From: Nemertoderma westbladi
Taxonomy: Eukaryota; Animalia; Xenacoelomorpha
Length of the DNA: 64,000 bases
Direction of reading: 5' to 3'
NCBI GenBank assembly: GCA_032718475.1
Contig: JAUCBJ010004458.1
Coordinates: forward strand, 1 to 64,000
The stretch's first letter is position 1, and every line of letters starts with the position of its first letter. The position numbers and the translations under genes are program-made. Positions 3,568 to 64,000 of the stretch are shown piece by piece. The notes under the pieces were generated by a model that worked only from the letters and a program-made list of their open reading frames with translations, did no database searches and had not been told where the DNA came from.

Positions 3568-4042
3568 ATGAATATAATATTAGCCAATCCGGAAGACCTG
3601 CCTGACTCACCCGGACCCCGTAAACAGTTCCAGATGTCTCGGCGAAGTAGCAGTCCGGCCCAAGCCTTGCGGTACATCGAAACCGAACTGCAGAAGAAAA
3701 AATACCGTTCGGCCGCGCAATTTGCAGATGCGCTGCCCGCGCCGGTGTTTAAATCGATCTGCAACGAAATGCCGATGAGGGAGATCTTCAAAGACCTCCC
3801 CGTGAGCGCCGTGTTCCTACATACTATGCTGACGCGGGCGCTCTATCTCGGGTGTAAGTCCTGCTTCCCCAGTGCGGAGTTGTGTAAACTCGCCGATCAA
3901 TTGGTTCTGTTTCTCTCGTTGGAGGAGGACAATTCCTTCCCTGCGCTTGTCGACGACGATCATCTGAAAGCCTGTGGAAATCTAATGGGCTTGTTGATTC
4001 GTTGTGAGGACAGTGTAGGGAAACATCTAGCGGAACAGTTAG
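3568..4042 (+). CDS. MIEAP-domain gene, first visible coding exon
   Basis: GC-rich open frame (ALRYIETELQKKKY...GKHLAEQL) ending at TAG|GTAAGG. Confidence 0.8.
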
Positions 4043-7000
4043 GTAAGGTAATAATATCGGGAAACATCTAGTGGAACAGTTAGGTAAGGTAATAATGTCG
4101 GGAAACATCTAGCGGAACAGTTAGGTAAGGTAATAATGTCGGGAAACATCTAGCGGAACAGTTAGGTAAGGTAATAATGTCGTGAAACATCTAGCGGAAC
4201 AGTTAGGTAAGGTAATAATGTCGGGAAACATCTAGCGGAACAGTTAGGTAAGGTAATAATGTCGGGAAACATCTAGCGGAACAGTTAGGTAAGGTAATAA
4301 TGTCGGGAAACATCTAGCGGAACAGTTAGGTAAGGTAATAATGTCGGGAAACATCTAGCGGAACAGTTAGGTAAGGTAATAATGTCGGGAAACATCTAGC
4401 GGAACAGTTAGGTAAGGTAATAATGTCGGGAAACATCTAGCGGAACAGTTAGGTAAGGTAATAATAATGTCGTGAAACATCTAGCGGAACAGTTAGGTAA
4501 GGTAATAATATCGGGAAACATCTAGCGGAACAGTTAGGTAAGGTAATAATGTCGGGAAACATCTAGCGGAACAGTTAGGTAAGGTAATAATAATGTCGTG
4601 AAACATCTAGCGGAACAGTTAGGTAAGGTAATAATATCGGGAAACATCTAGCGGAACAGTTAGGTAAGGTAATAATGTCGTGAAACATCTAGCGGAACAG
4701 TTAGGTAAGGTAATAATGTCGGGAAACATCTAGCGGAACAGTTAGGTAAGGTAATAATGTCGTGAAACATCTAGCGGAACAGTTAGGTAAGGTAATAATA
4801 TCGGGAAACATCTAGCGGAACAGTTAGGTAAGGTAATAATGTCGGGAAACATCTAGCGGAACAGTTAGGTAAGGTAATAATGTCGTGAAACATCTAGCGG
4901 AACAGTTAGGTAAGGTAATAATAATGTCGTGAAACATCTAGCGGAACAGTTAGGTAAGGTAATAATATCGGGAAACATCTAGCGGAACAGTTAGGTAAGG
5001 TAATAATGTCGTGAAACATCTAGCGGAACAGTTAGGTAAGGTAATAATGTCGGGAAACATCTAGCGGAACAGTTAGGTAAGGTAATAATGTCGTGAAACA
5101 TCTAGCGGAACAGTTAGGTAAGGTAATAATATCGGGAATCATCTAGCGGAACAGTTAGGTAAGGTAATAATGTCGGGAAACATCTAGCGGAACAGTTAGG
5201 TAAGGTAATAATGTCGTGAAACATCTAGCGGAACAGTTAGGTAAGGTAATAATGTCGGGAAACATCTAGCGGAACAGTTAGGTAAGGTAATAATGTCGGG
5301 AAACATCTAGCGGAACAGTTAGGTAAGGTAATAATGTCGTGAAACATCTAGCGGAACAGTTAGGTAAGGTAATAATGTCGTGAAACATCTAGCGGAACAG
5401 TTAGGTAAGGTAATAATGTCGGGAAACATCTAGCGGAACAGTTAGGTAAGATAATTTTGTTTGGAGACATCTAGCGGAAACAGTTTGGATAATATTGTCG
5501 GGAGACATCTAGCGGAATAGTTTAGTTAGATAATAATGTCAGGATATATGTAGCGGCACAGTTAGGTAAGATAAGATCGTTAGGTAAGACATTATTTGTA
5601 GGGAGACATCTAGCGGATGGTTTAGGTAAGATACTAATGTCGAGAAACATCTTGCGGAATAGTTTAGTTAGATAATAAATAATGTCGGGAGACATCTAGC
5701 GGAACAGTTAGGTGAGGAAATAAATACTGCCTGGAGACATCTAGCGAAATAGTTTAGTTAGATAATAATGTCGGGAGACATCTAGCGGAACAGTTAGGTA
5801 AGGTAATAAATACTGCCTGGAGACATCTAGTTGACGGGATAGGTTAGATAGTAATGTCGGGAGACATCTAGCGGAACAGTTAGGTAAGGTAATAAATACT
5901 GCCTGGAGACATCTAGTGGACGGGATAGGTTAGATAGTAATGTCGGGAGACATCTAGCGGAACAGTTAGGTAAGGTAATAAATACTGCCTGGAGACATCT
6001 AGTGGACGGGATAGGTTAGATAGTAATGTCGGGAGACATCTAGCGGAACAGTTAGGTAAGGTAATAAATACTGCCTGGAGACATCTAGTGGACGGGATAG
6101 GTTAGATAGTAATGTCGGGAGACATCTAGTGGAACAGTTAGGTAAGGTAATAAATACTGCCTGGAGACATCTAGCGGAACAGTTAGGTAAGGTAATAAAT
6201 ACTGCCTGGAGACATCTAGTGGACGGGATAGGTTAGATAGTAATGTCGGGAGACATCTAGTGGAACAGTTAGGTAAGGTAATAAATACTGCCTGGAGACA
6301 TCTAGTGGACTACTAGGATCGGCATGCTGCATTGCAGCTGCATTTTTAAGAATGCTGTGCCGGCTTGTCAACAAAATTGCACCGCCACAACTCCCTATCA
6401 CCCATGACATTTGCTAGATCATCCGCATCTTTAAGGCCAGTGTCCTTTAAGATGCGTCTCAAGAAAGTCATGGGCTGTCCACCATGCTTATTCACTCCAT
6501 GAGGCTGCCAAAGTACAAGATTATGCACTGGCTGGTCCTCACGGCGAAAGCAATGTCCTGCAAAGCGGAGGCGATTTTGTTCTAGAGTCAAGCTTGGGGG
6601 AACCAATGAGACACCTCCAATGTTATATAGTGTCTGGTTGGAAATGTGTGCATTGTACTTGACACAATGAACCCGGCGTAGCATCTAGTGGACGGGATAG
6701 GTTAGATAGTAATGTCGGGAGACATCTAGTGGAACAGTTAGGTAAGGTAATAAATACTGCCTGGAGACATCTAGTGGAACAGTTAGGTAAGGTAATAAAT
6801 ACTGCCTGGAGACATCTAGTGGACGGGATAGGTTAGATAATAATGTCATAAGCTACTATATTTTCGTTGTTTCTCAAACACTTTTATGCGTTTCCAATTT
6901 CCATAGTTACCAAATTATTTATTTATTTGTTAGCCTTACACGAGAAGACTATTGAACGTCTGGGACAGCATGGCTTCGTTAACAGAGCCGGTCGGCAGTG

Positions 7001-10000
7001 TCATCTTCACGAAGGTATCCGTCTACAGTTCGATAGTTACCTTGCCGACATGCGGGCGGCTTGTCATCGTTTAGATGCGACGCCCCGAACTAGTAATAAC
7101 GATTTACTACCGACAAGGTTGGTGTTATTAATATATCAATATACAAAATACGTTCACCCAATTACAGGAGACAGGGAGGGGGGGGGGCTGTACGCAAATC
7201 CCATCTTGGCGAATTAATATCTCGCCTCCATGTTAAATTCTCAATTTAGGGAAAGGAGCAGGTTACAGTGGCACGTTATTTTAACTAAAACAATAAACTA
7301 AATACCATAGAAAAGGTTACAGTTTTATCTTTGAGAGTAATCAGCTGTTATTTGCGTCCAAGTTCCCCTGGAGAGAGATGAATTTTTATTGCGTCCAGTT
7401 TTCCCCTTATCTGAATTCCAGATATGTGTCTCGCCTGCTTAATAGAATCATTCGAACTAACGGTTAACAGTAGAAATGTTATGTAATTCAAACTACTACT
7501 GTACTAAAAACAATTAAACCACGTCAACTGTCTGTATATATGGAACCAAAGATCTACTGTATGTCCGAGTTCGCTCAACCTAGTAGTAGTAGTATTTGGA
7601 TTATGGAACCAAGCATACTACAATTTATCTAAACTGAAAGTTTCATTCCACCTCTATACCGCCCGCATACTTGCATTATTATACTGAAACAAAAACTGAA
7701 TAACTTCCAGTACCATGGCGTAACATGCTACTGTAGTTGCAAGACTACAATATTGTGCATATTTACATCACCTTTTCTCACTGCCTTTTCAGGTATAGTC
7801 ACCAACGGTTGATGGTTTCTAACGAGTCGGACGTCCAAGACAGATTGATAAATAATCAGAAACTGATGACGGCCATCGCCCCTGCTGTTGGCACCTCGAA
7901 GGCGGATATCGACAAACTCATTGAGGAACTTAGGGTGCGGATCGATGGTGACAAAGAGGCATTACGGTAAATCTCGCAATAAATATTGAAATTTAACCGA
8001 ATCGTTGAAATTAGTAGCAACTTTACAAACAGCGACAGTCTCACAAGGAAGTTATTACGTCCTGTAATGAGAACGAGAGTGCTCGAGTTTCCAATAAAGT
8101 ACTGATCTGGAATCAATTTGGAATTTGACGGCTTTGAATCGAGTGCCGTTGGATTGTTTACATATTCCGTCCAGAGTTAAAATAAATAATATGTTGATTT
8201 TAGTATAGTAATACAGTATACGAATATACGACATTATTAAAATTCATCCTCAGTACTTTTGCCGACTGCTGTAATTGAATAATTACAGAGGCAGCCGGTA
8301 TTATTTTAGATATCAGATCGGCTGCCTTATTTATAATTATAATTAGGATGTGAATGCACATGGGCTTGATCAGATAAACTCTCGACCTCTCTTGTCTATT
8401 GTAATAATGCGGAACCGTAACTACTGTAGGAAGTTTAGGCTACTGTATTGTAAAATCCAAGCAGGTGAGATACTTGGAAACAAACCCCTCCAGTAGTCAG
8501 TAGGCCTAATTGGGAAGAACAATTCCAATGAACCAATATTATATTGTGCCAGGTGGAAAAACAAAGTAACTTAGGAAAGCAAGTAGGAAAGAAACTTGTT
8601 TGGAAATTTATTATAAACGTATCTTGCCCATAACGCCACCCCCCACCCCCCAACCCCCTGCCCAAACATTAAAAATAAATATTATACCTTAAAATCATTA
8701 AAACTAAATCCCTGCGAATTAACAATGTTAAATATCAAGTAATGGAATGGATCCGCACGTTACAGCGACTGGTTAATTTAACCAAATCAATAAATAGGAG
8801 TCAGTCAATTGCATTTTGAATTTTTGAGAGTAAATCAGCTGTTATTTGAGTTGATTTTCCCCTGGAGAGGGATGCATTTTTATTGCGTCGAAATTACTGA
8901 AATACATAATGTTTATCTTTTTGTGGTGGTTTCGAAAAATATTGACAATTCTGATAATATATATTTTATAGGTTATTTAACGACAGACGTAAAGATAGAC
9001 GATTTGACGGGAGTATTCCGATTCTTTCTGTTCTAATGGAACACGCGAAAGCCCTACAAACAGCCGCCAACATTGCCAAGTTTGATAGCATCGCCCCTAT
9101 TGGTTCCAGTACCATTCCAAGAAGTAAAAACCAAACAAGAAGTAGAAACGATGAAAGCCCACGGTCTGATATCGTTGATGGTAAGTTATGTAGTTCAGAG
9201 TTCTCTTGAAATTGTTGATGGTATTACATATTATTGGGTCCACGTAGCGAGACCTCTAGTATTGTCTCTGTTGTTGTTGTTGTTGGTGTTGGTGGTGTTG
9301 TTGTTGTTAATTTCCACTTTGGTTTTGGTATTAGGGCTTAGTTGGCAGGCTTAGGGCAGTGGCTCAGTTGGCAAAGCGTCGGACTTGGAATCTCTAGTTA
9401 CCGAGTTCAATCGCCTCATTCCGGTGAATTTTTTGTTGTTGTAAGATTGGTATTAAGCCATTCAAGGAGACATTTCAATGAGTTAGTAGACTCGGACCTT
9501 TGCGCGATTTGGCGCATGTTATGTACTTTAGGTGCGATGGCTTAAATGTTGGTCAGATTCATTGACTCCTAAACTCATGCGACGTATTAGGCGCTATGCC
9601 TATGTAGGGTACAAGGTAATACAAATAAACGATCAATCAAAGACAAAAATAGAGATACACAAAATGTACAAATAATAACTAATAAAGCTGCAATGAAATT
9701 CTTAACCTCAGCTCAGATATTGTTCAAAGGTAACGAAGTCGTTAAACACTTGTATGTATTTTTTTTTAGGATCCCATGCCCTGAGCAATGGCGACATAGT
9801 GGTCAACGGCAATCGGCACGGTGTAGGAGCAGAAGGCGTTGAACATGTATCCGAAACTGAAACTAATCACAGACTTCGGATGGAATTAGCGGCCGTTCGC
9901 CAGCAAGTAGAGAAATTATCATCGAGAGAAGATATATTAACTCAAAGGTTAGATATTAAACTATAAAATGATTTGTTACCGTTGTAAATTCATGTTAACG

Positions 10001-13000
10001 AGAATGCCTCATGGAGAAAGCAATAAGTATTTGAGGAAGGATCGGCCGCGGGCTAAACCAGCTTATTGCATTTTTCCATATAATAGTGAACTACCTCCGA
10101 ACTAGTTTGACAATTTCCCTCCAATTTTAATTTATGAAACGGTTCGTTGATTATCTGTTCGTAAAAATGTAGTTATTAGAAAAAGCAAAACTAATTTAAT
10201 ATTTATTATACTGTATATTACATTGCCGTAAACCATGGTGCCGGACCGGTGCGGTGGTAATCAATCCACTCCCAAGTCACAACAGTATCCCCGATAGATC
10301 TCCTCAATCTCCCACTGATCAATATCTTTCTCCACTAAAACACAAATCATGGAACCAACTGCATCCGCTACAGAAAACACAAATATGAAGAATTATTCCT
10401 TTCCGAATTAGAATTACCATTTGCATACAATTATTTATCTGCACTAAATACATGAGTATTCATACTACTGTAACAAACGAGTCGACCCCGCCTGAGAGTT
10501 AGTAATTTTCAGTGGCCCCGGTTGATCCATAATTTCCAAAAGTTTGCTCACATTGACCGCATGGGAAAAGTGATTTCCAGCGTAAATTTGATGTTCGCAA
10601 ATGAAATAAAGTTTCTTGGATAGATATTTTTACAGAACACAAGCGAACACACAAAAACACACCCGAACACACTCCAAAAACCGCCGAACACAAATTCGGT
10701 CGCACAAAAAAAAGGTTACATACGTTAGATGGGCAATGGGCAGGCGCAGAGATGCTGAGATGTGCTAGGCGGTGCAGCCGCCATAGCATCGGTAAAGATA
10801 GATACCGACATCCGTGCACCAACACTGTCTGACGGGTAGTTCTTTTTACAGAACACAAGCGAACACACAAAAACACACCCGAAAACACTCCAAAAACTGC
10901 CGAACACAATCGAACACAGTCGAAAATAGAAAGAGCACAAAAAATGACACCGGGTACGAACTTTTAGATAAAATTAGCCACGCGTTGCTTTTCTATAAGA
11001 AAATTCCCGAAATTATTGAATCAAATTGTCGCGAAATTAAATATTCATTTCTTATCAAGTAGGCCTATCATTTGCTGTGTACTGCTGTACTGTATAACAA
11101 ACTATGTAGTGAAGCCTACTGGGGTCCCGTACCTGTCACATATATAGTAATTGCGGGTTAGCTAATAGGCCTATTTGCCTGTGTACTGGAATAGCTTGGT
11201 CTGGGACTGATTGCTGAGGATATGAATTACTGTAGGGAGTTTAGCCAGTTACCGTACATGACCGTCATGACACACGGTACAACAAGGGTACCGGTACCTA
11301 CCTGTCTACTCCTGCACTGGAATTTAAAGAGCTGGGTCTTAGTTAAGTACCTACCCTGGCAGGTACCGGTAGGCCTAGGGATATCTGTCCCAGTGCTACC
11401 ACACTTATCTTAGGCCTACTACTTTGTTAAATTATTAGTTGTCGGCTTAGGCTAGGCCTGATCTGATAAGAAATGAATATTTAATTTCGCGACAATTTTA
11501 TTCAATAATTTCGGGAATTTTCTTATAGAAAAGCAACGCGTGGCTAATTTTATCTAAAAGTTGGTAACCGGTGTTATTTTTTTGTGCTCTTTCTATTTTC
11601 GACTGTGTTCGATTGTGTTCGGCTGTTTTTGGATTGTGTTCGGGTGTGTTCTTGTGTGTTCGCTTGTGTTCTGTAAAAAGAACTATCCAAGTTTCTTTAT
11701 TGTTTTGGTTAGAAAACACCGCCACTGTGACGTTTTAAATTAAATTAATTATTTAAACTCAATGAATACATAATCATGGTGTTATTATTATATAATTTGA
11801 GATAATAATAATTACTGAGGCCTACATTAAAAAAAAGCCATAAGTTAATTTTACTTTATGCGGCTTATTGCGGACTATCGAACCCCTCAGACACACCCCT
11901 ACCCGTCTCCGTGTAGGACATGTAGGAGTTGCGCGTTACTCCATATCTGCAATAATTGTTCCGTCGATGGGTCTTCTCTAGACAGTACCGGTAGTAGTTC
12001 GGGTCTCCCGGGTTATTCTCGCGTCATCGCCACGTATAAATCAGGGACCGATTGACCAGCCTATACCACCTAACTACTGTACTTGCGCTACAGTACTAGT
12101 CTAAAATAGTGTATCTGTACATAACCAAGTGCTGCACGCGGTGTAACATTTCCCATTATAAAGAAAGTCTAGAAATTCTATGATTCCGTATTTCTATTTC
12201 TCCCAATTATATTTCCGGAGCGATCTTAAATCTAAAGAGGAGTTGGTAAGGCAAATTTAATAATAAAGCGATTGCCATCTTAATAATTACATTATCTTCC
12301 TATCCCGATTCTTGGTAAATTTTTTGGTTTTTAAATAAATACTATGAAACGCCGTTGACACCAAAGTTTATCACTACTCACCAAAGTACAGTAGGTACAG
12401 TACAAACTTAGTGCGACAACATTTATGTCTCAGTAACTTGAGCCGTTGAGGCCATATTTATAGGCGGGAATTTAAACAGTAGGATTTTGGACGGGCATAA
12501 GATAACCATAGAAAACCCATACTTGGGGTAAAGTAGTACATTTTTTGACTATTAATTCCCGAGAGAGTCGAGAGAATATTAAAAATATAGTGTACGTTTT
12601 TTTCCCATACAGTAGTAATACGCAATATTCTCGTAGACCAAGACTAGACTCTCCTGATTCATGGTTCCACCACTCCTCTGACAACCCCAGTCTCTGCAAT
12701 AGTCTGACACTGACGTTGTGCTTTATGACTCAAGGGAACCCCGGAGACACATCAGGGATGAGTTCACCAAAGCAAAGTTTAATTTGGTGCGGACTAACGA
12801 CACCGTGGATAACACCGGTAGTGGCAACAACAAATGAACAGAAACCCGCATGTTCTTTGAAATTTATGCGTTCCTCATATTTGCGGCGCTTCCCTCCTCC
12901 TGCTTGCTATATGAAGCAGTAATCGACCGGGGATTGGAAACGCAAAGAGGATTGACGTCTATAAGCGTCCGATCGAATTGTCCTCCCCACAGTGCACTCA

Positions 13001-16000
13001 CCACAACCTCAACTCGTGCATCATCTCGTGCGCATTGTCACTGGCTGAAGGTTCGGCTTAATCTGAATACTATGACACCTACCTTGGAGATAAGTTCTGT
13101 GTATCTGCGAGAATGTCACGGATGCTGATGCACTATGACATATGCGGGGAATCCACCATTGGAGCAGTGGAGTGTAGTGTGTGATGGTGAATGAAGCACC
13201 ACAGATGAAAGTGGCAGGCAACTGTTAAGGTTACAACTTTATACCTAAAACATAGACTTTCCCAGAAGGTAGTTTTGTGTAGAAACATTCCAAGTAATCT
13301 TTGCTTCCAAATCAAACTACCTAAAGAAGGACCTTCTGTACTTCCCGTGGAGGAGTATCGCATCAAGTATTTAAGGCTTGATTGGGCTCACTCAACTTCT
13401 TCAAATTCTCATAACAAATTATATGCAAAGTAATACAGTAGTAGTAATACAAAATATATTGAACTGCCGTATTTGTCTATATTGCTTCCATAGTTACTGC
13501 GATTCTAATTATTGTACTCTTTAATAAGATTTCAGGTCAAAGGGTCGAAAAGGGGCCAAGGACAAACAACACTGACAAACAATAATAAGGGAAAACAGCA
13601 AGTTACAGAGACGACTTTTTCTAACCAAAACAATAAACGATGTTGTTACCAATTGAGGGAAAGGAGTATAATAATATAATGAAAATGATCTTCCGATGCT
13701 CCAACACCCGATGCTGCATTACTCAATGTTAAATCATTTCTCTGGAATATTTATGCGTAAGAGAGCTGCTTAACTACATCAATATTGGATTTTGAGTTCT
13801 GTTTTGCCTTACTGTGTGCTTGGATTTTGCTCAAATTACGTGTTCTAACACCAAGTTAAAGCGACAAAGTAATGAGACTTAAATTTTGTCTCAATAGTTT
13901 GTACCTACAACACTGTACTTTGGTGAGTAGTGATAAATTTTGGCGTCAACGGCGTTCCATAACAAACTAACTGCGGTCAGCAAACCCAAACACTTTGTGC
14001 TGCAGTTTAAGTACCGAACCGATGCAGCAGTGAAGAAGAGTAGCGGCTCTAATGACCCCCTAGAAAATATAACATCGTCGTGTTAAACTTCACTTGTAAT
14101 AATTGAGATAATATACTGCGACACTATCACTACCAGTTTATTGAGAATTCGATAAGTAGTGGTATACTTTTTTTTCTTTAACGAAATAATGCGAAATATT
14201 AGCCATTAACGTTCATTATTAGATTTATTTATTTTACACCAAAATTATGATATACAATAATCAATTACTACAAGTTATCTATCACCGTCTTCGTGGTCTA
14301 AATCTTTATCAGCTACTTTGTGACTGTCTGCGTCCCGAAGATCGTCATTGTATCTCCGACGTCCCACATTGTGTCTGTCCGGATACCCTTCATTGTGTCT
14401 GTCCGGACGCTCTTCTCTGTGTCTGTCCGGACGCTCTTCATTGTGTCTGTCCGGATACCCTTCATTGTGTCTGTCCGGACGCTCTTCTCTGTGTCTGTCC
14501 GGACGCCCTTCCAAGTGCCTTACATTGTATCTGTCCGGACGCCCTTCGTTGTATCTGTCCGGGCACCCATAATTGGACCTATCCGGACACCTTTCATTGT
14601 GTCTGTCCGGACGCCTTTCATTGTATCTGTCCGGACGCCCGTCAGTGTATCTGTCCGGACGCCCTTCAGCGTATCTGCCCGGACGCCCGTCAGTGTATCT
14701 GTCCGGACGCCCTTCAGCGTATCTGCCCGGACGCCCTTCAGTGTATCTGTTCGGACGCCCTTCACTGTATCTGTCCGGACGCCTTTCATTGTGTCTGTCC
14801 GGACGCCCATCACTGTATCTGTCCGGACGCCCTTCACTGTATCTGTCCGGACGCCCTTCACTGTATCTGTCCGGACGCCCGCTATCATATCTGCCCACGT
14901 CCCGATATTTGTCCGAAGCCCCGGACTTGTACCTGTCCGGACCCCTGGCCTGAATAATATCCGCGCCCTGTCCCACAGAAACATCACGACTCTCATCGTC
15001 GTACCACCCCGGAGTCCCGGTACTGTCCGGGACCGGACTGTTCTTGTTGTCCCACAGACTAGATGTTTCCGGTAATATCGTATCCGACCACCACTCGAGC
15101 CCCCTCGCCCCCCGCTGGGGCGGCATCGGGACATTCACACCCTCGGCCATGGCGGCAGCCGTCGTTCTCCGCCCACGGAATAACGCAATCAGTCGCTCCC
15201 GCTCCCCAATGGGTTCAATAACCTCTGGGTCACGGCTACCCACCCAAGGCGTCGTCGGGGTGACTACCTTAGAGCCGTCAGCAAGTCCGTAGTAGTTGTA
15301 ATCTTTGGGGTTGTCCAGGGCCGTATCAATAACTTCCTCGATATTCTTATAATTTATCGACGATTCCAACATCTCTTGTACCTCAGATAGTTCCTCTTCC
15401 GTCTGTTTCACCTCCCCCGTATTTGATTCAGTTCTATCCGACTCCGCCAACATTAAACTTTCTTCCCTTAACCTTTCCCCCCGTTCTGCCGCCACTCTCT
15501 CATTCCACTCCCGGTTTACTTGTTCTCGTCTCAGATTATCTTCCGCCTTTACTGCGACTGCTTGGAGCGGCGAATTACCCAAATTATTCTCGAATTCGAG
15601 TTCCTTTTTAAAGTGTTCCTTAAGCAGTTCCATCTGTCGCCCGTAGGTCTCATAGGCGCTCTGAAGGAACAACGTATCGTCCACATTGATGGGTGTCGGT
15701 TCTCTCACCCGGCCCACTTTGGACGCCGACGTCGGTATGTAACGCGGCTTACGGTAGCGTTTCTGCGATACCATGGCAACATGGCCCGGACAAACAAAGA
15801 GTTTTCCTGTCCTTCCCAGTGTCAAACTCATCATGTTGAGTACATTTAACGCGAACTATTTAACCAAGAGTTAGTATAATTGCACAAGCCGAGCATCGGC
15901 TTGTGCAAAAATAAACATTTAGTAAGAATTGAATTAAATGTATAAAATATTAACTATTGTGGACTAAGTTGGGATTTAAATAAATAACAAAGAAATTAGT

Positions 16001-39417: not shown

Positions 39418-39515
39418 CTATACCGTAACACTAGCCGTGCTACGGGCCGCAGCGTTTATTTCGGTGACCTTACTGGCGGTGGGGGATGTGGGTGAACGAC
39501 TGGCAATCACGTCAT
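39418..39515 (-). CDS. MXD: Probable MXD terminal exon ([32 protein letters not shown])
   Basis: ttttatttcgcacag| acceptor, phase 1, GC-rich, TAG stop, followed by an AT-rich UTR-like region. Confidence 0.55.
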
Positions 39516-51500: not shown

Positions 51501-53170
51501 ATTAATAATTTATAAGAACGGCTATTCCACCAGCAACTACTAGTTAATGATGTTGTTATTGCAGTAGTTCTATGAATATTCAGCATTTAGTATACACCTA
51601 CCCCTATTTCAACGGAGTGTCAATGTCAGTCATTTTTGGTTTTTATTTATCGGTGTAATATTTTGATTTAGTGACATTCCTAAGCATTTCTCCGCTTTCT
51701 TCCACTAAAACTTGATAGTAAGTTTAAGTTAGAAAGTTTATGTAGACGTCTTCAGTTCCTACTTCGGCAACTATGGGGCATAATGTCTTAAAGTGAAAAC
51801 CTTTCCCCACCGACAACAAGCAAACATAGACTAAACTACAAAAACACCCGTTTGCTAAAGCTTCTCTCACTATGTGGCTCGCACCAAAAAGCGTCTCAAC
51901 ATCAACAATTAGCAAACGCCATTAAAGAATCGAATCGAATCGAATCGATATGGAGGAGATATTTATTGCAGAACTAGTTGATTAGCAACACGCGTCGACT
52001 AATGGAAGGCATCGCGCCCACTAATACTCGAATAGTGACAATCTATTCAACTAAACACAATAAGACAGTTCCGCTTACATAAATTATTCACGCGGAATCC
52101 CATCGAATAAACGTTTACCTAACGCCATCTCATCTTCGGAGAAACTAAGCTACAGAAAGAGTTAATTTGTTTGATCAACACAATGGAATAAGTAATGACG
52201 TCATGATGCAATCATCATAAAAATCAGTCGAAGTAGGTTGTCATAAAATATCATCAAATTACATTGTTTTTTTTATTTGAGACAACTTGACTAAGGGGGT
52301 AGTGAGTGAGTGAGGGAGCAGTGAAACTTTTCAAGGTGATTTCTATACTAACGGGATATTCAGTTGCCTTGGAGATTTTGATCAACATTTGGGAATATAA
52401 TATTAATTACATTGCATCCAGAATACCTGATAAGACACTCACTATCATCTACCACCGTATTAATGTGCAATTGAGTGTATGAGTGGCCTATATTAGTTTC
52501 CAACAAAACCCGGGGTAAGTGATGTTCGCATTTAACTAAACCCAAAGCGTTGAGACTAATTAGCACACAGCCTTATATAAATAATAAGTAATATAAATAT
52601 TAATAATGATTGATTATCGCTTTGCTTGCCAACCAAGAAAATTCCATTATTCGTTTATGTGAGGCTTCTATCACTCAACAGTTAGTTGTGTGCTTAAGGA
52701 TGCCATTTTACTTGCCGACCATCTGCTTTATTGACCGATGGAAACTGAAATTACAGGCCCACATGCACATTACATGCACGACCAGTGCAGAGAGGCCACA
52801 AAGAGAGTTTCAGTCTCAGTGTAGTTTCATAAAACACAAACACAATACCAAATCAATAGCACTGGGCGAGAGGGCTGTAATTTAAATAAATTACATTTTC
52901 TCCATATGCGCTACGCACTTGATCGGGCCATCATGGATGCTAAAACACAGAATGGGTAATAATTCGCCAATGTTAAGAATACTGACGGGTGGAGGCACTT
53001 CAATGAACGGTTGAATAAAAATGATTTTGAAATTATAGTAATTATAATTACTAACCTTAATGAAGTTGGTTGCCTTGGTCAGGAGACTGAGGGTGGTGTG
53101 TCGGGTGCCGCCAGGGCCAGTGGGTACCAGAGCTTTAAGATCCCCCAAGCAACTGCGGAGATGAGCTCGT
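39418..53170 (-). CDS. MXD: Max dimerization protein (Mad/Mxi1 family bHLH-ZIP), 3' part; exons 53170-53056, 43625-43454 and probable last exon 39515-39418; upstream exons not found in the window
   Basis: [38 protein letters not shown]|ALEDTDR...[15 protein letters not shown] matches the Mad/Mxi1 bHLH-ZIP; GT-AG phases are consistent. Confidence 0.85.
39748..39802 (-). repeat. Three copies of a 19-bp unit beginning with GTAAGT at a CAG|GTAAGT donor
   Basis: Minus strand reads CCCACAG|GTAAGTTAGGCCAGTGAAA GTAAGTTAGGCCAGTGAAA GTAAGTTAGGCCAGTGA. Confidence 0.9.
40877..40950. repeat. 14-bp tandem repeat GAACAATGCTGTCC, about 5 copies
   Basis: Direct periodicity. Confidence 0.9.
41283..41998. mobile_element. 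MITE with tandem-subrepeat TIRs (AAAAATATCGAGAGT)n, GG...CC ends and 8-9 bp TSD (C)TTACATAT
   Basis: Left arm 41283-41440 is inverted relative to 41720-41998; the TSD flanks both ends. Confidence 0.88.
43454..43625 (-). CDS. MXD: MXD/Mxi1 leucine-zipper exon
   Basis: cctttgcag|GCA CTT GAG GAT...AGC TCA G|gttaat. Confidence 0.85.
44221..45874 (+). mobile_element. Young 5'-truncated LINE with poly(A) tail, antisense in an MXD intron
   Basis: 15-bp TSD ATATATAGTAAGTAT at 44206 and 45875; A-tail 45856-45875; uninterrupted RT frame. Confidence 0.95.
44222..45694 (+). CDS. LINE ORF2 fragment: reverse transcriptase plus C-terminal Cys/His knuckle
   Basis: [45 protein letters not shown]...H...C; no endonuclease domain because of truncation. 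Confidence 0.92.
   Translation: MFNLILNIGRLPTTWKQSIIKILYKGRGTITNPDNYRGIALLCVLLKVMTSIINKRIRSAISHQIPNEQFGFVAGKSTTQAINNLLNDISSVINSNTSNRIVYAAFIDFRKAFDMVSRAKLLFKLYKMGIKGRIYNIIKDLLDNYLTIFDGLRFSNLIHQLRGILQGDCLSPVTFIIFIADLALALRSASACLMFLLFADDLVFYSTNRDDVQVGLDALHRWSIENGMSMSMDVNLTKTKIMKFRKAGRLSALDRFQYNGKLVEIPKQYEYLGVILQPSLCFSNHIKEKKETSYKIIGSIHNLQRLSIKTGIMVFNMKIAPSVTYALAAFGKFLRVTHLKELDKIKATHMKRLLGLHSSASSTLALKMVGDGEQTFVESILRKTPTVFDPIVIAQYREHRAEREENFRSEGYLEGPAFTGSTWKLPGQRNRHLVTRTTSHGFHHVICLNTQRFHPLAVGCRCKYCSGPCDHRYHALNCTHCPTLAELAAM
47465..48225. mobile_element. MITE with TIR ATGGGTGTAAACGTTAAGCAGACAC and an internal 12-13 bp GTGTCTGCACCA array
   Basis: Terminal inverted match at 47465-47490 and 48200-48225; explains the low-complexity ORFs at 47605-48349. 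Confidence 0.88.
49221..51169. mobile_element. 1.95-kb foldback element, about 300-bp near-perfect outer TIRs, CATG ends, probable 7-bp TSD (P/Galileo-like)
   Basis: CATGGAATACTAAATATACACGG... / ...CCGTGTATATTTAGTATTCCATG; flanks CCTAAAC and CCCAAAC; inner arms also inverted, with many TTCTAGAA. Confidence 0.88.
53056..53170 (-). CDS. MXD: MXD/Mxi1 helix-loop-helix exon
   Basis: ttttattacag|A CGA GCT CAT CTC...TTC ATT AAG|gttagt. Confidence 0.9.
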
Positions 53171-55388: not shown

Positions 55389-56909
55389 GGTGTCGTCGCG
55401 TTTCGGCAAAAAAGTTGCGTTTCGGTAAAAAAAAGTCGTGTTTCGCAAAAAGGTGCGTTTCGGCCAAAAAGTTGCGTTTCGGCAAAAAGCCGCGTTTCGG
55501 CAAAAAAGTTGCGTTTCGGCAACAGTTGCGTTTCGGCAAAAGGTTGCGTTTCGGCAAAATTATTTCTTGATTGCAGGATAATACACTGTGGAGTAGAGAA
55601 CCGCGCAGGAAAGTAAAAGAGGCCGGTGGCGTCAACATGAAATTTAGTTTGTACTGATATATTACCTTAATTGCAAATAACAATAACACGAGTGGGGCCT
55701 TTGTGCAGCAAAAGCTGCAAGTCATCTTAGCGAACAGTTAGTTATAAATTTATTATGGCTAGTTATATCTTTGGTTTCCGACACACTGACATACACACAT
55801 ACTTTTAGAAACGGCCATAATATAATTATAACAGTTCGCTGATGGCTCGCAGTTCTGACATCTGTGATGTTCTCATTGTAGTTTTAGGAACGAATTACCG
55901 GAAAGAATAGGGTGACAGCTTTGAACTATTTAAATCGATACTTAAGAGTTGAAAAGAAGTTTCAGCACCACAGGCTGTTTTCATGTAAATTTGGCGCTAT
56001 AGTAATACTACTATAATAATAATAATACATAAACTAAATTAGTAGTTAGAGTGTATAATTAATCATTGTGGCCGTGATGGTTCATGGTTAATATACACTA
56101 CCCTTTCATTGTAACGAGTTAAAAGTAAAATACGTAAAGTAAAAGACGGCCAAGTACTGTAGGGTTGAGCAAAGTGGCAGCAGATGATGGTATTGGCAGA
56201 TGGGAAGCCATGAGGAGGTAAATTGCGTACATACAAGGTATCAGATAGTATTTCCAAGTCTATCTTTTACCCGAGCCGCTAGCTGAATGGTTAGAACGTC
56301 AGACTTCCTACCCGGAAGTCACCAGTGTGATTCCACCTGGACATCATTGCCAACTTTGCAAAGCTGTGTCCAACAAAAAGTTATAATAATTATGAACAAT
56401 GGCTAATCCATATAATTATATTTATTTGTGGGGAATTATTTGCAATTATGCACTTAAAACTTTCTAGAACAACCTAATAATGGCGCGGTGACACACTGGA
56501 TATACTGGACATACATTGTAAAATGTATGGCGTAGGGACATACTGAGAAATAATGTCGCACTGCGATGTAAAGTTAAAAATATGTCGCCCTGGCGATTTG
56601 GTAGTGCGAAATTAATTCCACACAAATAAATAAAATAATATTAGTACTGTGTACTTATTAATACCTTGCATAATTGTCATGAAGACCACTCCAAATTTAA
56701 TTGATTTCTAATTTCAACTTGGATCTAACACATCTAGGAATTTATTTATATTTTTTTGTAATTTTTAATTTTTATTTATTATTTTAATTTACTTTTTGCC
56801 GAATCGCGACATTTTTTTCCAAAACGCATCTTTTTTGCCGAAACGCAACTTTTTTTGCCGAATCGCGAGTGTTGCCGAATCGCGACTGTTGCCGAAACGC
56901 GATGAAACC
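55389..56909. mobile_element. Non-autonomous TIR element with (GCGTTTCGGCAAAAAAGTT)n arms, GG...CC ends and 8-bp TSD AACTC(G/C)AC
   Basis: Arms 55389-55560 and 56790-56909 are inverted; TSD matches 7 of 8. Confidence 0.82.
56272..56345 (+). mobile_element. Degenerate tRNA-like SINE head
   Basis: TAGCTGAATGGTTAGAACG A-box-like motif; degraded B-box. Confidence 0.4.
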
Positions 56910-59204
56910 AACTCCACAATGTAGCATTCGCCAAACGGCCAAAATTACATATCTGACAAACTTGTAAATAACAGTTGTGCCGGTACCGGTACTGTAACGG
57001 TTGAGAAATTAGGTATCGGCCCAACACAACATTATAAATAAGCCAAATAATGTAGTTAAACTGAGAAGGAAGAGGACAATAATTAAGTTTGAACAGTGAA
57101 TTACCCCTGTCGGAAGTAACACAGGGGCGAGGTCGAGAAGGAAATGCGGTAATTACTTAGTTTTGTATTTCCTTTTGTAATTACTTACTTACAGTTGCTT
57201 TAAAGAAGAAACAATAAATGGTGTAAAACAAGTATATTTTAACAAAAAATAATGATCAAATCAGCCAAGAGTAATATGTTTGACTTCATTACATATTAAT
57301 TAACGGCGGACGGTGACCTAGAATGACCTTTACGTACAAGCACAATTAATTATGAACCAGAAGCAAAATCGGACAGATGGACACATAGCAGGAAATCTAA
57401 TAGCAGTCACGACAGTGTTAATTAAGACTGAAATTATCAGCGGATGGCGTGAAAGGGTTAATCGCTCATTCTCGAGATCTTAAACCGTTGAATGTTAGAA
57501 GCCTTATAAGTTATCGATCTATCTCAGACCGATTGGCACCACTGGAGAAATATCCCAATCTCCTGAAGGATGACAGTGGGTTGATTTTATTTGCATGGAC
57601 GTGACTTGGAGATCTATTACATTGCATTACAGGGAGGAGGGTAGAATTACTGAATGCAGAGAGGAATCACATAATGTTGGATAGTCAATCATAACCTGGG
57701 CGTTACGACAACACAATAAGGTATCATTGGGGGCAGCCAAATCTAATATAAATATATATTATATCCACTCAATACTAAGTAACAAAACAGCATACCGCAA
57801 TGTAATAACCGTAACAATTAGCGGAGGTTTGAAATAGGTTGGAATTCTTTCTCGCGAAGTAATAACACAGGTTGTCTTTGTGAGGCCGTGGGAGGTCGCC
57901 TGCACAATTTTAATTAAATGGCGAGGCCAAGGCAAGGACAGCCACCTTTCCACTAATTGGTAACTGTTACCCCAACAACCGACTGCTATAACAATGATTG
58001 ACTTCCTCAATAACCAACGATGGCTCGGTGTGACTGACCGCCCATCGAAACATAAGAATACGAAAGCTTTTCATTAACACAAATAGGTCATTACGTGATT
58101 ACCCAACATGCACCTGCGGACTAATAAGCTTACCGCATTCCACTGGTAAGACATAAATTGTCAGAGTCATCGTCATTGTGGCATGGCTTAGTAGCCCCCG
58201 TGTTCATCGTCGTCTAGTAAGAAGTAAAAGATCAATTTGTCAAAAAATGTAAGATGGGCGTCAGGTTCAATGGAATACTTGTTAAGTTTGAAGTCAAAAT
58301 ATGAAACCTCTTTTGACTCATGAGTTGACAGAGTTGTGACTTACCAGTGGACCCTGCCAGGTTGAAACCAATGTAGGATATAGGACAATTGTGACCCGGA
58401 CAATTCGGCCCACATTGGATGACGTATATTTCAAGGATATGGCCAAATGATGTGGTACCATGGTAGGGGTAGGATTGTGGAGAAATAAAGGTTTGTTACC
58501 GACAAGAGATGGCTTCCAAAAATTATGCACCTTTTCCAATATTCAAACAAAATATATGACAATAGACTAGACAAATGTTGTTGTAAGAAACAGGTCGTGG
58601 GTTGAAGTGAAGGAGTATTACTGCTAAATATAATTCGATTCAAGGTCGGAAGATTTCAATAAGTATAATTCAATTAGTGTTCTGGATCAGTAAAACTGCT
58701 GCTCCAGCATACTAATATATAGGATGGCCCTGCCCTGCATACAATAGCTGCAGCTTGCATTAAGCGCTTGAAATAATCGCCGGCTGAAAAGGCAGGCTAA
58801 AAAATGCAATTAAGCCTAGTGCAATATCAATGACGGGCTTTGTGTACAAGGACAATATGAAATCGCCGTAGGCCTGCCGGCAGACCGAATACATATATAC
58901 GGGAATGTATAAAGCGGCTGGAATAGCCACAAGACGGGCCAAGTGCTTTTGCCGCGCTGGAATATTAATTGTAGCCGATAATGCTACGCTTCCAGGAGTA
59001 TCAACTGGAATGGATTAGGAATGTTGGACATTACTACATTACCTTCTCTAAGAAATTCGTATCTTAACAGGATGTTATTTAGGTTGACTTAGTTGGGGAG
59101 CTTTGGAGCATTTCCAAAGTACCTGGAGGGGTTATTCCTGATATATATATATATGTAAACCGGGGTCGTAAGATACCCACTATATTACAATACATTACAT
59201 GGTG

Positions 59205-62200
59205 GTTGGTTATGTCTGAAAGGCGGCGACCTACCTGGTTATGGTCATATATATACAGGAATGTGATTGGTTAGGTCTGAAAGGCGGCGACCTACCTGGT
59301 TATGGTCGTATATATTCAGGAATGTGATTGGTTAGGTATGAAAGACGGCGCCCTAACTGGTTGTTATGGTCATATATATATATATATATACGGGAATGTG
59401 ATTGGTTAGGTCTGAAAGACGACGACCTAACTGGTTGTTATGGTCATATATATACAGGAATGTGATTGGTTAGGTCTGAAAGACGGCGACCTACCTGGTT
59501 ATGGTTGAATATATTCAGGAATGTGATTGGTTAGGTATGAAAGACGGCGACCTAACTGGTTGTTATGGTCATATATATACAGGAATGTGATTGGTTAGGT
59601 CTGAAAGACGGCGACCTACCTGGTTATGGTCATATATATACAGGAATGTGATTGGTTAGGTCTGAAAGACGGCGACATACCTGGTTATGGTCATATATAT
59701 ACAGGAATGTGATTGGTTATGTCTGAAAGGCGGCGACCTACCTGGTTATGGTCATATATATACAGGAATGTGATTGGTTAGGTCTGAAAGGCGGCGACCT
59801 ACCTGGTTATGGTCGTATATATTCAGGAATGTGATTGGTTAGGTATAAAAGACGGCGCCCTAACTGGTTGTTATGGTCATATATATATATATATACGGGA
59901 ATGTGTTTGGTTAGGTCTGAAAGACAACGACCTAACTGGTTGTTATGGTCATATATATACAGGAATGTGATTGGTTAGGTCTGAAAGACGGCGACATACC
60001 TGGTTATGGTCATATATATACAGGAATGTGATTGGTTATGTCTGAAAGGCGGCGACCTAACTTGTTGTTATGGTCATATATATACAGGAATGTGATTGGT
60101 TAGGTCTGAAAGACGGCGACATACCTGGTTATGGTCATATATATACAGGAATGTGATTGGTTAGGTCTGAAAGACGGCGACATACCTGGTTATGGTCGTA
60201 TATATTCAGGAATGTGATGTTAGGTCTGAAAGGCGGCGAACTACCTGGTTATGATCATATATATACAGGAATGTGATTGGTTAGGTCTGAAAGACGGCGA
60301 CCTACCTGGTTATGGTCATATATATACAGGAATGTGATTGGTTAGGTCTGAAAGACGGCGACCTACCTGGTTATGGTCATATATATACAGGAATGTGATT
60401 GGTTAGGTCTGAAAGACGGCAACATACCTGGTTGTGGTCGTATATATTCAGGAATGTGATTGGTTATGTCTGAAAGACGGCGACATACCTGGTTATAGTC
60501 ATATATATACAGGAATGTGATTGGTTAGGTCTGAAAGACGGCGACATACCTGGTTATGGTCATATATATACAGGAATGTGATTGGTTAGGTCTGAAAGAC
60601 GGCGACATACCTGGTTATGGTCATATATATACAGGAATGTGATTGGTTAGGTCTGAAAGACGGCGACGTACCTGGTTATGGTCATATATATACAGGAATG
60701 TGATTAGTTAGGTCTGAAAGACGGCGACATACCTGGTTGGTTATGGTCATATATATACAGGAATGTGATTGGTTAGGTCTGAAAGACGGCGACATACCTG
60801 GTTATTGTCATATATATACAGGAATGTGATTGGTTAGGTCTGAAAGACGGCGACATACCTGGTTATGGTCATATATATACAGGAATGTGATTGGTTAGGT
60901 CTGAAAGACGGCGACATACCTGGTTATGGTCGTATATATTCAGGAATGTGATTGGTTATGTCTGAAAGACGGCGACCTACCTGGTTATGGTCATATATAT
61001 ACAGGAATGTGATTGGTTAGGTCTGAAAGACGGCGACATACCTGGTTATGGTCATATATATACAGGAATGTGATTGGTTAGGTCTGAAAGACGGCGACAT
61101 ACCTGGTTATGGTCATATATATACAGGAATGTGATTGGTTAGGTCTGAAAGACGGCGACATACCTGGATATGGTCATATATATACAGGAATGTGATTGGT
61201 TAGGTCTGAAAGACGGCGACATACCTGGTTATGGTCGTATATATTCAGGAATGTGATTGGTTAGGTCTGAAAGACGGCGACATACCTGGTTATGGTCATA
61301 TATATACAGGAATGTGATTGGTTATGTCTGAAAGACGGCGACCTACCTGGTTATGGTCATATATATACAGGAATGTGATTGGTTAGGTCTGAAAGACGGC
61401 GACATACCTGGTTATGGTCATATATATACAGGAATGTGATTGGTTAGGTCTGAAAGACGGCGACATACCTGGTTATGGTCATATATATACAGGAATGTGA
61501 TTGGTTAGGTCTGAAAGACGGCGACATACCTGGTTATGGTCATATATATACAGGAATGTGATTGGTTAGGTCTGAAAGACGGCGACATACCTGGTTATGG
61601 TCGTATATATTCAGGAATGTGATTGGTTATGTCTGAAAGACGGCGACCTACCTGGTTATGGTCATATATATACAGGAATGTGATTGGTTAGGTCTGAAAG
61701 ACGGCGACATACCTGGTTATGGTCATATATATACAGGAATGTGATTGGTTAGGTCTGAAAGACGGCGACATACCTGGTTATGATCATATATATACAGGAA
61801 TGTGATTGGTTAGGTCTGAAAGACGGCGACATACCTGGTTATGGTCATATATATACAGGAATGTGATTGGTTAGGTCTGAAAGACGGCGACATACCTGGT
61901 TATGGTCATATATATACAGGAATGTGATTGGTTAGGTCTGAAAGACGGCGACCTACCTGGTTGTGGTCGTATATATACAGGAATGTGATTGGTTAAGTCT
62001 GAAAGACGATGACCTAACTGGTTGTTATGGTCATATATATACAGGAATGTGATTGGTTAGGTCTGAAAGACGGCGACATACCTGGTTATGGTCATATACA
62101 GTATATACAGGAATGTGATTATTGGTTAGGTCTGAAAGACGGCGACATACCTGGTTATGGTCATATATATACAGGAATGTGATTGGTTAGGTCTGAAAGA

Positions 62201-64000
62201 CGGCGACCTACCTGGTTGTGGTCGTATATATACAGGAATGTGATTGGTTAGGTCTGAAAGAGGGCGACCTACCTGGTTATGGTCGAATATATTCAGGAAT
62301 GTGATTGGTTAGGTATGAAAGACGGCGACCTAACTGGTTGTTATGGTCATATATATACAGCAATGTGATTGGTTAGGTCTGAAAGACAGCGACCTACCTG
62401 GTTATGGTGGTATATATTCAGGAATGTGATTGGTTAGGTCTGAAAGACGGCGACCTACCTGGTTATGGTCATATATATACAGGGATGTGATTGGTTAGGT
62501 CTGAAAGACGGCGACCTACCTGGTTATGGTCGTATATATACAGGAATGGGATTGGTTAGGTCTGAAAGACGGCGACCTACCTGTTTATATGGTCGTATAT
62601 ATTCAGGAATGTGATGTTAGGTCTGAAAGGCGGCGAACTACCTGGTTATGGTCATATATATACAGGAATGTGATTGGTTAGGTCTGAAAGGCGGCGACCT
62701 ACCTGGTTATGGTCGTATATATTCAGGAATGTGATTGGTTAGGTATAAAAGACGGCGCCCTAACTGGTTGTTATGGTCATATATATATATATATACGGGA
62801 ATGTGTTTGGTTAGGTCTGAAAGACAACGACCTAACTGGTTGTTATGGTCATATATATACAGGAATGTGATTGGTTAGGTCTGAAAGACGGCGACATACC
62901 TGGTTATGGTCATATATATACAGGAATGTGATTGGTTATGTCTGAAAGGCGGCGACCTAACTTGTTGTTATGGTCATATATACATATATATACAGGAATG
63001 TGATTGGTTAGGTCTGAAAGACGGCGACATACCTGGTTATGGTCATATATATACAGGAATGTGATTGGTTAGGTCTGAAAGACGGCGACATACCTGGTTA
63101 TGGTCGTATATATTCAGGAATGTGATGTTAGGTCTGAAAGGCGGCGAACTACCTGGTTATGATCATATATATACAGGAATGTGATTGGTTAGGTCTGAAA
63201 GACGGCGACCTACCTGGTTATGGTCATATATATACAGGAATGTGATTGGTTAGGTCTGAAAGACGGCGACCTACCTGGTTATGGTCATATATATACAGGA
63301 ATGTGATTGGTTAGGTCTGAAAGACGGCAACATACCTGGTTGTGGTCGTATATATTCAGGAATGTGATTGGTTATGTCTGAAAGACGGCGACATACCTGG
63401 TTATAGTCATATATATACAGGAATGTGATTGGTTAGGTCTGAAAGACGGCGACATACCTGGTTATGGTCATATATATACAGGAATGTGATTGGTTAGGTC
63501 TGAAAGACGGCGACATACCTGGTTATGGTCATATATATACAGGAATGTGATTGGTTAGGTCTGAAAGACGGCGACGTACCTGGTTATGGTCATATATATA
63601 CAGGAATGTGATTAGTTAGGTCTGAAAGACGGCGACATACCTGGTTGGTTATGGTCATATATATACAGGAATGTGATTGGTTAGGTCTGAAAGACGGCGA
63701 CATACCTGGTTATGGTCATATATATACAGGAATGTGATTGGTTAGGTCTGAAAGACGGCGACATACCTGGTTATGGTCATATATATACAGGAATGTGATT
63801 GGTTAGGTCTGAAAGACGGCGACATACCTGGTTATGGTCGTATATATTCAGGAATGTGATTGGTTATGTCTGAAAGACGGCGACCTACCTGGTTATGGTC
63901 ATATATATACAGGAATGTGATTGGTTAGGTCTGAAAGACGGCGACATACCTGGTTATGGTCATATATATACAGGAATGTGATTGGTTAGGTCTGAAAGAC
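59205..64000. repeat. 61-bp minisatellite (GGTTAGGTCTGAAAGACGGCGACATACCTGGTTATGGTCATATATATACAGGAATGTGATT), about 78 units, runs off the right edge; probably in an upstream MXD intron
   Basis: Period of 61 (one-base shift per 60-nt line); variable (TA)n inside the unit. Confidence 0.98.

What the first reader, a model, noticed from the sequence alone, without database searches (positions are those of the whole stretch)
4018..64000. Unrelated intronic minisatellites all carry sense-strand 5' splice-site motifs: candidate donor-array (U1 decoy or recursive splicing) system
Seen: four arrays with unrelated sequence each put a donor motif in nearly every unit, oriented with the host gene. These are the 41-mer TAG|GTAAGG (+), the 30-mer TAG|GTGAGG or CA|GTATGT (+), the 19-mer GTAAGT (-, inside MXD) and the 61-mer CAG|GTATGT/GTAGGT (-, upstream of the MXD HLH exon). 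Three of them start at or within about 15 nt of a donor. The 28-mer also begins on the minus strand at CAG|GTAGAG. Established: U1 binding suppresses premature polyadenylation in long introns, and AG|GT sites act as recursive-splicing ratchets. Inference: either a splicing-linked mutational process seeds repeats at donors, or the arrays act as U1 landing pads.
Basis: partly seen in the sequence, partly recalled or inferred. Interest (0 to 1): 0.78.

Follow-up and report, generated by a model that had tools for sequence, protein, structure and literature searches.

The report
Splice-donor "mirage" minisatellites in two genes
In an unidentified animal, one intron repeat is plainly the end of an exon and its splice signal copied about 55 times, and three or four other intron repeats carry similar signals, likely for the same reason; this kind of repeat is known from lancelet and human genes and is likely tolerated rather than a splicing device.

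Summary
The motifs are real, but the arrays are not equal. The 41-mer (4014-6846) is a tandem copy of the true exon/intron junction of a MIEAP-domain gene (40 of 41 bases match; microhomology at both ends). That is a 'mirage' as in lancelet genes and human F7 intron 7. The 61-mer (66 of 77 units with a strong donor) lies by inference in an MXD intron, and its start is outside the window. The 30-mer begins 20 nt after the true donor and resembles its own junction only weakly (17/30, p about 0.04). The 19-mer is three units at an unverified exon. The 28-mer has weak donors and no known host gene. Sense donors occur in 3-6 of 19 intronic arrays, 0.3-1.9 expected (p 0.003-0.11); without the 41-mer p is 0.016-0.24. 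Donor columns are not better kept than other columns, and the AG|GT sites lack pyrimidine tracts, which argues against U1-decoy or recursive-splicing function. No genome or RNA run was available. The scan has already reported many donor and acceptor mirages in this genome and in other animals (unchecked notes).

The parts
3584..35259 (+). MIEAP-domain host gene, 9 exons seen (3584-4042, 6934-7117, 7793-7966, 8972-9180, 9770-9947, 22918-23194, 23591-23653, 23814-23996, 34927-35259); 5' end not established
   Evidence: All junctions AG/GT and 686 codons with only the terminal stop; Pfam MIEAP E 1.4e-6 in the last exon. No RNA support available.
4014..6846 (+). 41-mer donor mirage: unit is about the last 27-29 nt of the exon plus the first 12-14 nt of the intron; homogeneous to about 5440, then mixed 41/45-nt variants; true donor 4042|4043 is in unit 1
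   Evidence: Unit matches this junction at 40 of 41 positions, other 9 donors 13-21; TGT microhomology at the exon start of the unit and just after the array; 14 copies of the junction 16-mer within 600 nt, 0 at the other 9 donors and 12 acceptors
24017..34818 (+). 30-mer array, about 281 units plus a decayed tail from 34419, filling intron 8; possibly an old diverged donor mirage
   Evidence: starts 20 nt after true donor CAG|GTTGGG; 17 of 30 identity to its own junction, best of 10 donors, reached by 4 of 171 AG|GT sites, shuffles p 0.037-0.039, gapped test p 0.12; intron-side test negative
39418..53170 (-). MXD/MXI1-like gene, last three exons (53056-53170 HLH, 43454-43625 zipper, last exon from 39515); SID and basic-region exons lie by inference beyond 64000
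   Evidence: Pfam HLH E 3.7e-7, profile positions 13-50 of 53; a hit named Max dimerization-like; open frame of 127 codons across the three exons; upstream exons not found
39745..39802 (-). 19-mer, three units, starting exactly at the GT of a perfect donor that closes an unverified 64-nt candidate exon (39803-39866)
   Evidence: including the exon shifts the frame and stops at the start of the last exon
59202..64000 (-). 61-mer array, at least 77 units, running out of the window; each unit has CAG|GTATGT or CAG|GTAGGT and a second, acceptor-like AG 19 nt downstream
   Evidence: unit-level p 0.003-0.03 against shuffles and intron background; origin not testable because the upstream end is outside the window
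1..1099 (-). 28-mer array, about 39 units, weak donor-like GTAGAG; host gene and strand unknown
   Evidence: not above chance (p 0.11-0.45); no Pfam hit in 33 open frames of 1080-3560; 7 of the 10 nt before the first GT match one unit variant

Best explanation
The 41-mer is a tandem copy of its host gene's own exon end and splice donor, and the other donor-bearing arrays likely arose the same way, as local duplications at or beside splice donors that likely persist because the first donor is still the one used. Shown: the 41-mer unit equals the true junction, has microhomology at its ends, and every later donor would add an in-frame stop. Inferred: a short microhomology-led duplication made unit 2, slippage or unequal exchange amplified it, and the extra copies fell inside the intron. 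Inferred from human F7 and lancelet work: the spliceosome takes the most upstream donor, so the mRNA is unchanged and the array is nearly neutral, free to grow, decay and take transposon insertions. The shared sense orientation then follows from where the units were born, not from a shared function. The 30-mer would be an older, diverged case, the 19-mer a newborn one, and the 61-mer one whose source exon lies beyond the window.
For: 40 of 41 identity to its own junction; microhomology; stop at codon 161 for donors 2-6. 30-mer matches its own junction best of 10 donors, p about 0.04. Sense-biased excess of donor-bearing arrays, 3-6 of 19 against 0.3-1.9 expected. Donor columns not better kept: mean conservation donor versus other columns 0.89/0.94 (30-mer), 0.93/0.92 (41-mer), 0.92/0.97 (61-mer), 0.85/0.92 (28-mer). 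Related insertions with 10-12 nt target duplications sit inside both MIEAP-gene arrays. Precedent: lancelet mirages with normal splicing (PMC3087553; PMC3902484); F7 uses only the most upstream of 5-9 identical donors, and its unit holds only 4 exon bases (PMC1557585).
Against: Only 1 of 10 frame-supported donors has clear copies of itself. The 30-mer link is weak: the intron-side test gave p 0.26 and 9 of 67 AG|GT sites scored as well; the gapped exon-side test gave p 0.12. The 61-mer unit end does not resemble the expected end of the MXD basic-region exon beyond the last three bases (my reading, from the family sequence). The 19-mer exon and the 28-mer host are unverified. Without the 41-mer the excess is modest and vanishes at one threshold (p 0.24). 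Which donor is used was not observed here. In human CBS and IFI6 (6-16) later donors are also used (as cited in PMC1557585).
Confidence: 0.62

Rival explanations
1. Only the 41-mer is a mirage. The 30-, 61-, 19- and 28-mer are ordinary minisatellites whose units contain a donor-like word by chance and were picked out afterwards.
For: 13-16 of 19 intronic arrays have no sense donor; without the 41-mer p is 0.016-0.24, and without the 41- and 19-mer 0.014-0.49. The 30-mer motif is not above a dinucleotide shuffle (p 0.05-0.32) and the 28-mer not above any null. Only 20 + 108 nt of intron 8 is non-array, so any array there starts near a donor.
Against: All three arrays over 1 kb with a known or inferred host carry sense donors, none antisense; the 61-mer has p 0.003-0.03 under all nulls; the 19-mer starts exactly at a 9-of-9 donor, and sites of 8 or more occur twice in 28.6 kb of sense intron.
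Confidence: 0.17
2. A splicing- or transcription-linked mutation bias (pausing, R-loops or nucleosome edges at exon ends) seeds and expands duplications at splice sites in this lineage, beyond what tolerance alone would leave.
For: 27% of the window is four large arrays, three with sense donors. Unchecked notes report many giant junction arrays in this genome.
Against: Tolerance predicts the same end state. Nothing here measures mutation rate. The notes also report acceptor arrays, so the effect is not specific to donors or U1.
Confidence: 0.12
3. The arrays are kept as U1 landing pads or decoys that suppress premature cleavage and polyadenylation or tune donor choice.
For: Predicted in-register U1 pairing of -8 to -10 kcal/mol for the 41-, 30- and 61-mer, as strong as the best real donors. 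The 45-nt variants of the 41-mer carry AATAAA close behind the donor (11 hits in the array span). Telescripting is established (passage in PMC7544216).
Against: The +1 G of the 61-mer is the 4th most variable of 61 columns, the -1 G of the 30-mer the most variable of 30. The 30-, 61- and 28-mer spans hold 2, 0 and 0 AATAAA. The largest intron of the MIEAP gene (13 kb) has no donor array. Non-array intron shows no sense excess of strong donor sites (18 sense, 22 antisense). Units are not independent, so the column test is indicative only.
Confidence: 0.06
4. The AG|GT words are recursive-splicing ratchet points.
For: AG|GT is present in most units of the 41-, 30- and 61-mer; the 61-mer unit has a branch-point-like CTAAC about 37 nt before its AG|GT (read from the sequence; motif recalled).
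Against: 5-7 pyrimidines and 2-4 T in the 15 positions before these AGs, against 7-13 and 6-11 at 12 real acceptors. Spacings of 30-61 nt are at or below usual minimal intron size (own knowledge). Any donor-spanning unit of an exon ending in AG looks like this by construction.
Confidence: 0.03

Closest known systems
Lancelet 'mirage' minisatellites (Adh3, troponin C, globins BflGb6/BflGb9, PGBD5); PMC3087553 and PMC3902484, passages read
   Same: Tandem copies of an exon-intron boundary running into the intron; units of 10-160 bp; spare splice signals; concerted evolution inside the array
   Different: Here the arrays are larger (59, 281 and over 77 units against 3-6 for BflGb6), the animal is not identified, only one array is shown to span a real boundary, and splicing was not observed
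Human F7 intron 7 37-bp VNTR (PMC1557585; abstract, Discussion and introduction passages read), with IFI6 (6-16), CBS, LMNB2 and PDGFA as cited there (not read)
   Same: First unit holds the true donor, and identical donors follow; F7 shows that only the most upstream one is used and that a unit may hold as few as 4 exon bases
   Different: 5-25 copies in the human cases; here more copies, transposon insertions inside the arrays, and several arrays in two neighbouring genes
Tandem repeats at exon-intron boundaries of human duplicated genes (PMC2812944, passages read)
   Same: Minisatellites of about 30 bp at exon boundaries that may be spliced out
   Different: Those often create new introns or alternative transcripts from exonic repeats; here the arrays inflate existing introns
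Recursive splice sites and U1 telescripting (own knowledge; one passage in PMC7544216)
   Same: AG|GT words and U1-complementary sites on the sense strand
   Different: No pyrimidine tracts, no preferential conservation of donor bases, introns long only because of the arrays

Membership tests
Mirage / F7-type boundary minisatellite (41-mer) | First unit spans a real exon-intron boundary | tested here: met
   40 of 41 identity to the junction of a 686-codon open exon chain; boundary supported by reading frame, not RNA
Mirage / F7-type boundary minisatellite (41-mer) | Splice site repeated head to tail inside the intron | tested here: met
   43 of 59 units carry the exact donor TAG|GTAAGG
Mirage / F7-type boundary minisatellite (30-mer) | First unit spans a real exon-intron boundary | tested here: inconclusive
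   17 of 30, p about 0.04; negative and p 0.12 gapped
Mirage / F7-type boundary minisatellite (19-mer, 28-mer) | First unit spans a real exon-intron boundary | tested here: inconclusive
   Both start at a CAG|GT, but the exons are unverified
Mirage / F7-type boundary minisatellite (61-mer) | First unit spans a real exon-intron boundary | not testable with these tools
   Array start lies beyond 64000; no genome held
Mirage / F7-type boundary minisatellite | Mature RNA uses the authentic (most upstream) donor | not testable with these tools
   No RNA holder listed
Mirage / F7-type boundary minisatellite | Copy number varies between alleles | not testable with these tools
   One haplotype only
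Recursive splice site | AG|GT juxtaposition | tested here: met
   Most units of the 41- and 61-mer, under two thirds of the 30-mer
Recursive splice site | Acceptor-quality pyrimidine tract before the AG | tested here: not met
   5, 6 and 7 of 15 against 7-13 at 12 real acceptors
Recursive splice site | Saw-tooth coverage and intermediate junctions | not testable with these tools
   No RNA holder listed
U1 decoy / telescripting element | Complementarity to the U1 5' end | tested here: met
   Predicted -8 to -10 kcal/mol for the 41-, 30- and 61-mer; weak for the 28-mer
U1 decoy / telescripting element | Donor bases kept by selection | tested here: not met
   Donor columns equally or less conserved than the others across units; no cross-species test possible
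U1 decoy / telescripting element | U1 binding and an effect on termination or splicing | not testable with these tools
   Needs U1 cross-linking or antisense block

The most novel reading that the evidence does not exclude
In this animal lineage splice junctions are the main birthplace of large satellites: a splicing-linked bias seeds and amplifies repeats at exon ends genome-wide, so that intron and genome size grow largely by copying splice sites, and the hundreds of spare donors per intron add U1 binding that protects the inflated introns from early termination.
Probability: 0.12. Interest if true: 0.72.

Novelty: new member of a known kind. Interest (0 to 1): 0.3.

Why it matters
As it stands this is another example of a described repeat class. 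Its use is as a natural test of how a spliceosome chooses one donor among dozens to hundreds of near-identical ones, which F7 addressed with only 5-9 copies. If a genome-wide count showed that junction copies make up most large satellites here, it would name a route of intron expansion for which my nine paper searches (open-licence library only) listed no genome-wide survey.

Tried and rejected
No whole genome is held, so the genome-wide strand and distance test could not be run. No RNA holder was listed for exon 3584-4042, which is no evidence on expression; no reads could be laid. A protein search with that exon found no relative among 709 candidates. The 10 relatives of the last exon align only within that exon, so they do not test the intron 8 donor. 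A Pfam scan of 116 open frames in 1080-3560, 36900-43400 and 53200-59200 gave 2 weak hits (FARP E 0.007 in a repeat, Fer4_10 E 0.005 below cut-off), neither taken as a gene. The first unit-splitting script miscounted the 30- and 61-mer, and one search was one base out of phase for the 30-mer; one search supersedes both. The MXD join was one base off and was corrected. I first took the 25-mer at 47740-48208 as an antisense counter-example, then set it aside: it is one arm of an inverted pair whose mate has the motif on the sense strand. Acceptor mirages: 0 of 12 acceptors have a nearby copy. The 61-mer as an acceptor mirage or copied 42-nt mini-exon was considered and left open. Unit relatedness: 3 of 6 pairs were tested before the script failed (p 0.44, 0.028, 0.44), and the 28-mer pairs were not tested. 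The organism was not identified: the nested AAA_28 protein is 43-47% identical to its best 120 hits across many animal groups. A look-up of earlier notes by the 61-mer sequence gave nothing relevant.
Full report
Setting. The window is from an unidentified animal; no genome and no RNA run was available, so everything below rests on the window, protein libraries and papers. Tandem Repeats Finder lists 49 rows; four arrays over 1 kb (28-, 41-, 30-, 61-mer) make up 27% of the window. On the plus strand nine AG/GT exons from 3584 to 35259 join into 686 codons with only the terminal stop, with a Pfam MIEAP match in the last exon. On the minus strand three exons give the HLH, zipper and tail of an MXD-like protein. 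The HLH match starts at profile position 13, and the SID and basic-region exons are not in the window, so the gene most likely starts beyond 64000 and the 61-mer lies in its intron. That last step is inference from the family's structure.

The observation. Counted per unit: the 41-mer keeps GT in 57 of 59 units and TAG|GTAAGG in 43. The 61-mer has a donor of 7-8 of 9 consensus matches in 66 of 77. The 30-mer keeps GT in 272 of 281 but reaches 6 of 9 in 130 and 7 of 9 in 24. The 28-mer reaches 6 of 9 in 2 of 39. The 19-mer is three units. The ten frame-supported donors score 5-7 of 9. I scored sites by matches to the recalled consensus and by computed in-register pairing to the recalled U1 5' end. 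The modal unit of the 61-mer beats all nulls (p 0.003-0.03). The 41-mer beats intron background (0.005-0.024) but not a dinucleotide shuffle (0.10-0.18). The 30-mer depends on the score (0.005-0.32). The 28-mer does not beat any null. Across 19 non-coding intronic arrays, 3-6 carry a sense donor in half their units against 0.3-1.9 expected, 0-1 antisense; p is 0.003-0.11 with the 41-mer and 0.016-0.24 without. The microsatellites, the coding 24-mer, the intergenic 18-mer, the decayed tail of the 30-mer and the host-less 28-mer were left out of that count. Thresholds were set after seeing the data, and several small arrays are inverted pairs in transposon-like elements. So there is a real but modest sense bias, carried by the large arrays.

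What the 41-mer is. Its first unit contains the true donor at 4042|4043. The unit matches this junction at 40 of 41 positions and the other nine donors at 13-21. A TGT microhomology stands where the unit begins in the exon and again just after the array, as expected of a short tandem duplication that was then amplified. Using any of donors 2-6 brings a stop at codon 161, so a working gene needs the first donor. After the array only 87 nt of intron remain. This is the only one of 10 donors and 12 acceptors with near copies of itself within 600 nt.

The other arrays. The frame-supported donor of intron 8 is CAG|GTTGGG at 23996, followed by an in-frame stop three codons later. The 30-mer starts 20 nt after it and its first GT is at +36. 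Phased on the donor, the unit matches this junction at 17 of 30, the best of 10 donors, reached by 4 of 171 other AG|GT sites, with shuffle p 0.037-0.039; a gapped test gave 0.12 and the intron side alone 0.26. I read this as suggestive of an old mirage, not shown. Proximity alone says little, because only 20 + 108 nt of the intron is non-array. The 19-mer starts at the GT of a perfect donor behind a 64-nt candidate exon that would change the MXD tail; the exon is unverified. The 61-mer's origin lies outside the window. The 28-mer starts at CAG|GTAGAG on the minus strand, but no host gene was found. A plus-strand candidate exon at 1671-1729 leaves open that it lies in or before the MIEAP gene, in which case its motif would be antisense or intergenic.

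Function. Three results speak against a U1 or recursive device. Donor columns are not better kept than the rest of each unit; the +1 G of the 61-mer is lost in 11 of 77 units and the -1 G is the most variable column of the 30-mer. Units are related by concerted evolution, so this is indicative only. The AG|GT sites have poor pyrimidine tracts. Related retroelement-like fragments with 10-12 nt target duplications interrupt both MIEAP-gene arrays (74% identical over 131 nt), as in tolerant DNA. For the function reading: predicted U1 pairing is as strong as at real donors, and variants of the 41-mer place AATAAA just behind the donor. Nothing here tests binding.

Known relatives. Tandem duplications of exon-intron boundaries are described in lancelet genes as 'mirages' and reported not to disturb splicing (PMC3087553, abstract and section 16 passages; PMC3902484, one passage). 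Human F7 intron 7 has 5-9 identical donors of which only the most upstream is used, and its unit holds 4 exon bases; IFI6, CBS, LMNB2 and PDGFA are cited as similar, with some use of later donors in the first two (PMC1557585: abstract, Discussion, introduction passages; the cited papers were not read). PMC2812944 (passages) covers boundary repeats in duplicated human genes. PMC7544216 (passages) was used only for the statement on telescripting. No supplements were opened. I reached the mirage papers before opening the scan's notes; the F7 paper came from a note. The notes list 24 similar findings in at least 12 genomes and, in this genome, 66 and 63 of 79 notes fitting my two word look-ups, including giant donor and acceptor arrays. 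I saw 8 per look-up and checked none of their sequences; they are leads, not evidence.

Verdict. One certain donor mirage, one suggestive, two untestable and one weak. The best reading is local duplication at splice donors, tolerated because the first donor is used (0.62). New member of a known kind; interest 0.3. The open and more interesting question is whether junction copies dominate this genome's satellites, which a single window cannot answer.

Noticed in passing
window 14275-15834 (-), 16567-17823 (-), 18848-19387 (+): Three intact intronless genes nested within 5 kb in intron 5 of the MIEAP-domain gene: MRPS26, an AAA_28 (TTD14-like) protein and a two-box HMG protein.
   Followed up: partly
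window 14345-14880 (-): The MRPS26 frame continues through a 24-nt tandem repeat, giving a long 8-residue-repeat C-terminal extension.
   Followed up: no
window 6311-6681, 29087-29413, about 22540-22680: Three related 3' fragments of a LINE-like element (RTE clade by recall, not tested); two sit inside the 41- and 30-mer arrays with 10-12 nt target duplications.
   Followed up: partly
window 27425-28956: A 1.5-kb unrelated insertion inside the 30-mer array; a short inverted repeat seen by eye near its left end and about 28812-28831.
   Followed up: no
window 59202-64000 (-): Each 61-mer unit has a donor, an acceptor-like AG 19 nt later (11 of 15 pyrimidines) and a 42-nt stretch between that AG and the next donor that reads without a stop in the phase of the MXD junction (read by eye, not computed).
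   Followed up: partly
window about 5700-6830: 45-nt variants of the 41-mer create AATAAA just behind the repeated donor; 11 hits in the array span.
   Followed up: no
window 41280-42001, 47482-48208, 55395-56902, 10605-11701, 49262-51126: Several foldback or MITE-like elements with long inverted arms, some built from short subterminal tandem repeats.
   Followed up: partly
window 44204-45694 (+): An open 496-codon reverse transcriptase frame (Pfam RVT_1), antisense within an MXD intron.
   Followed up: no
window 39803-39866 (-): Candidate 64-nt alternative MXD exon with a perfect donor; inclusion would replace the C-terminal tail with a stop at the start of the last exon.
   Followed up: partly
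window 1671-1729 (+): Candidate non-coding upstream exon of the MIEAP-domain gene with a good acceptor and donor.
   Followed up: no
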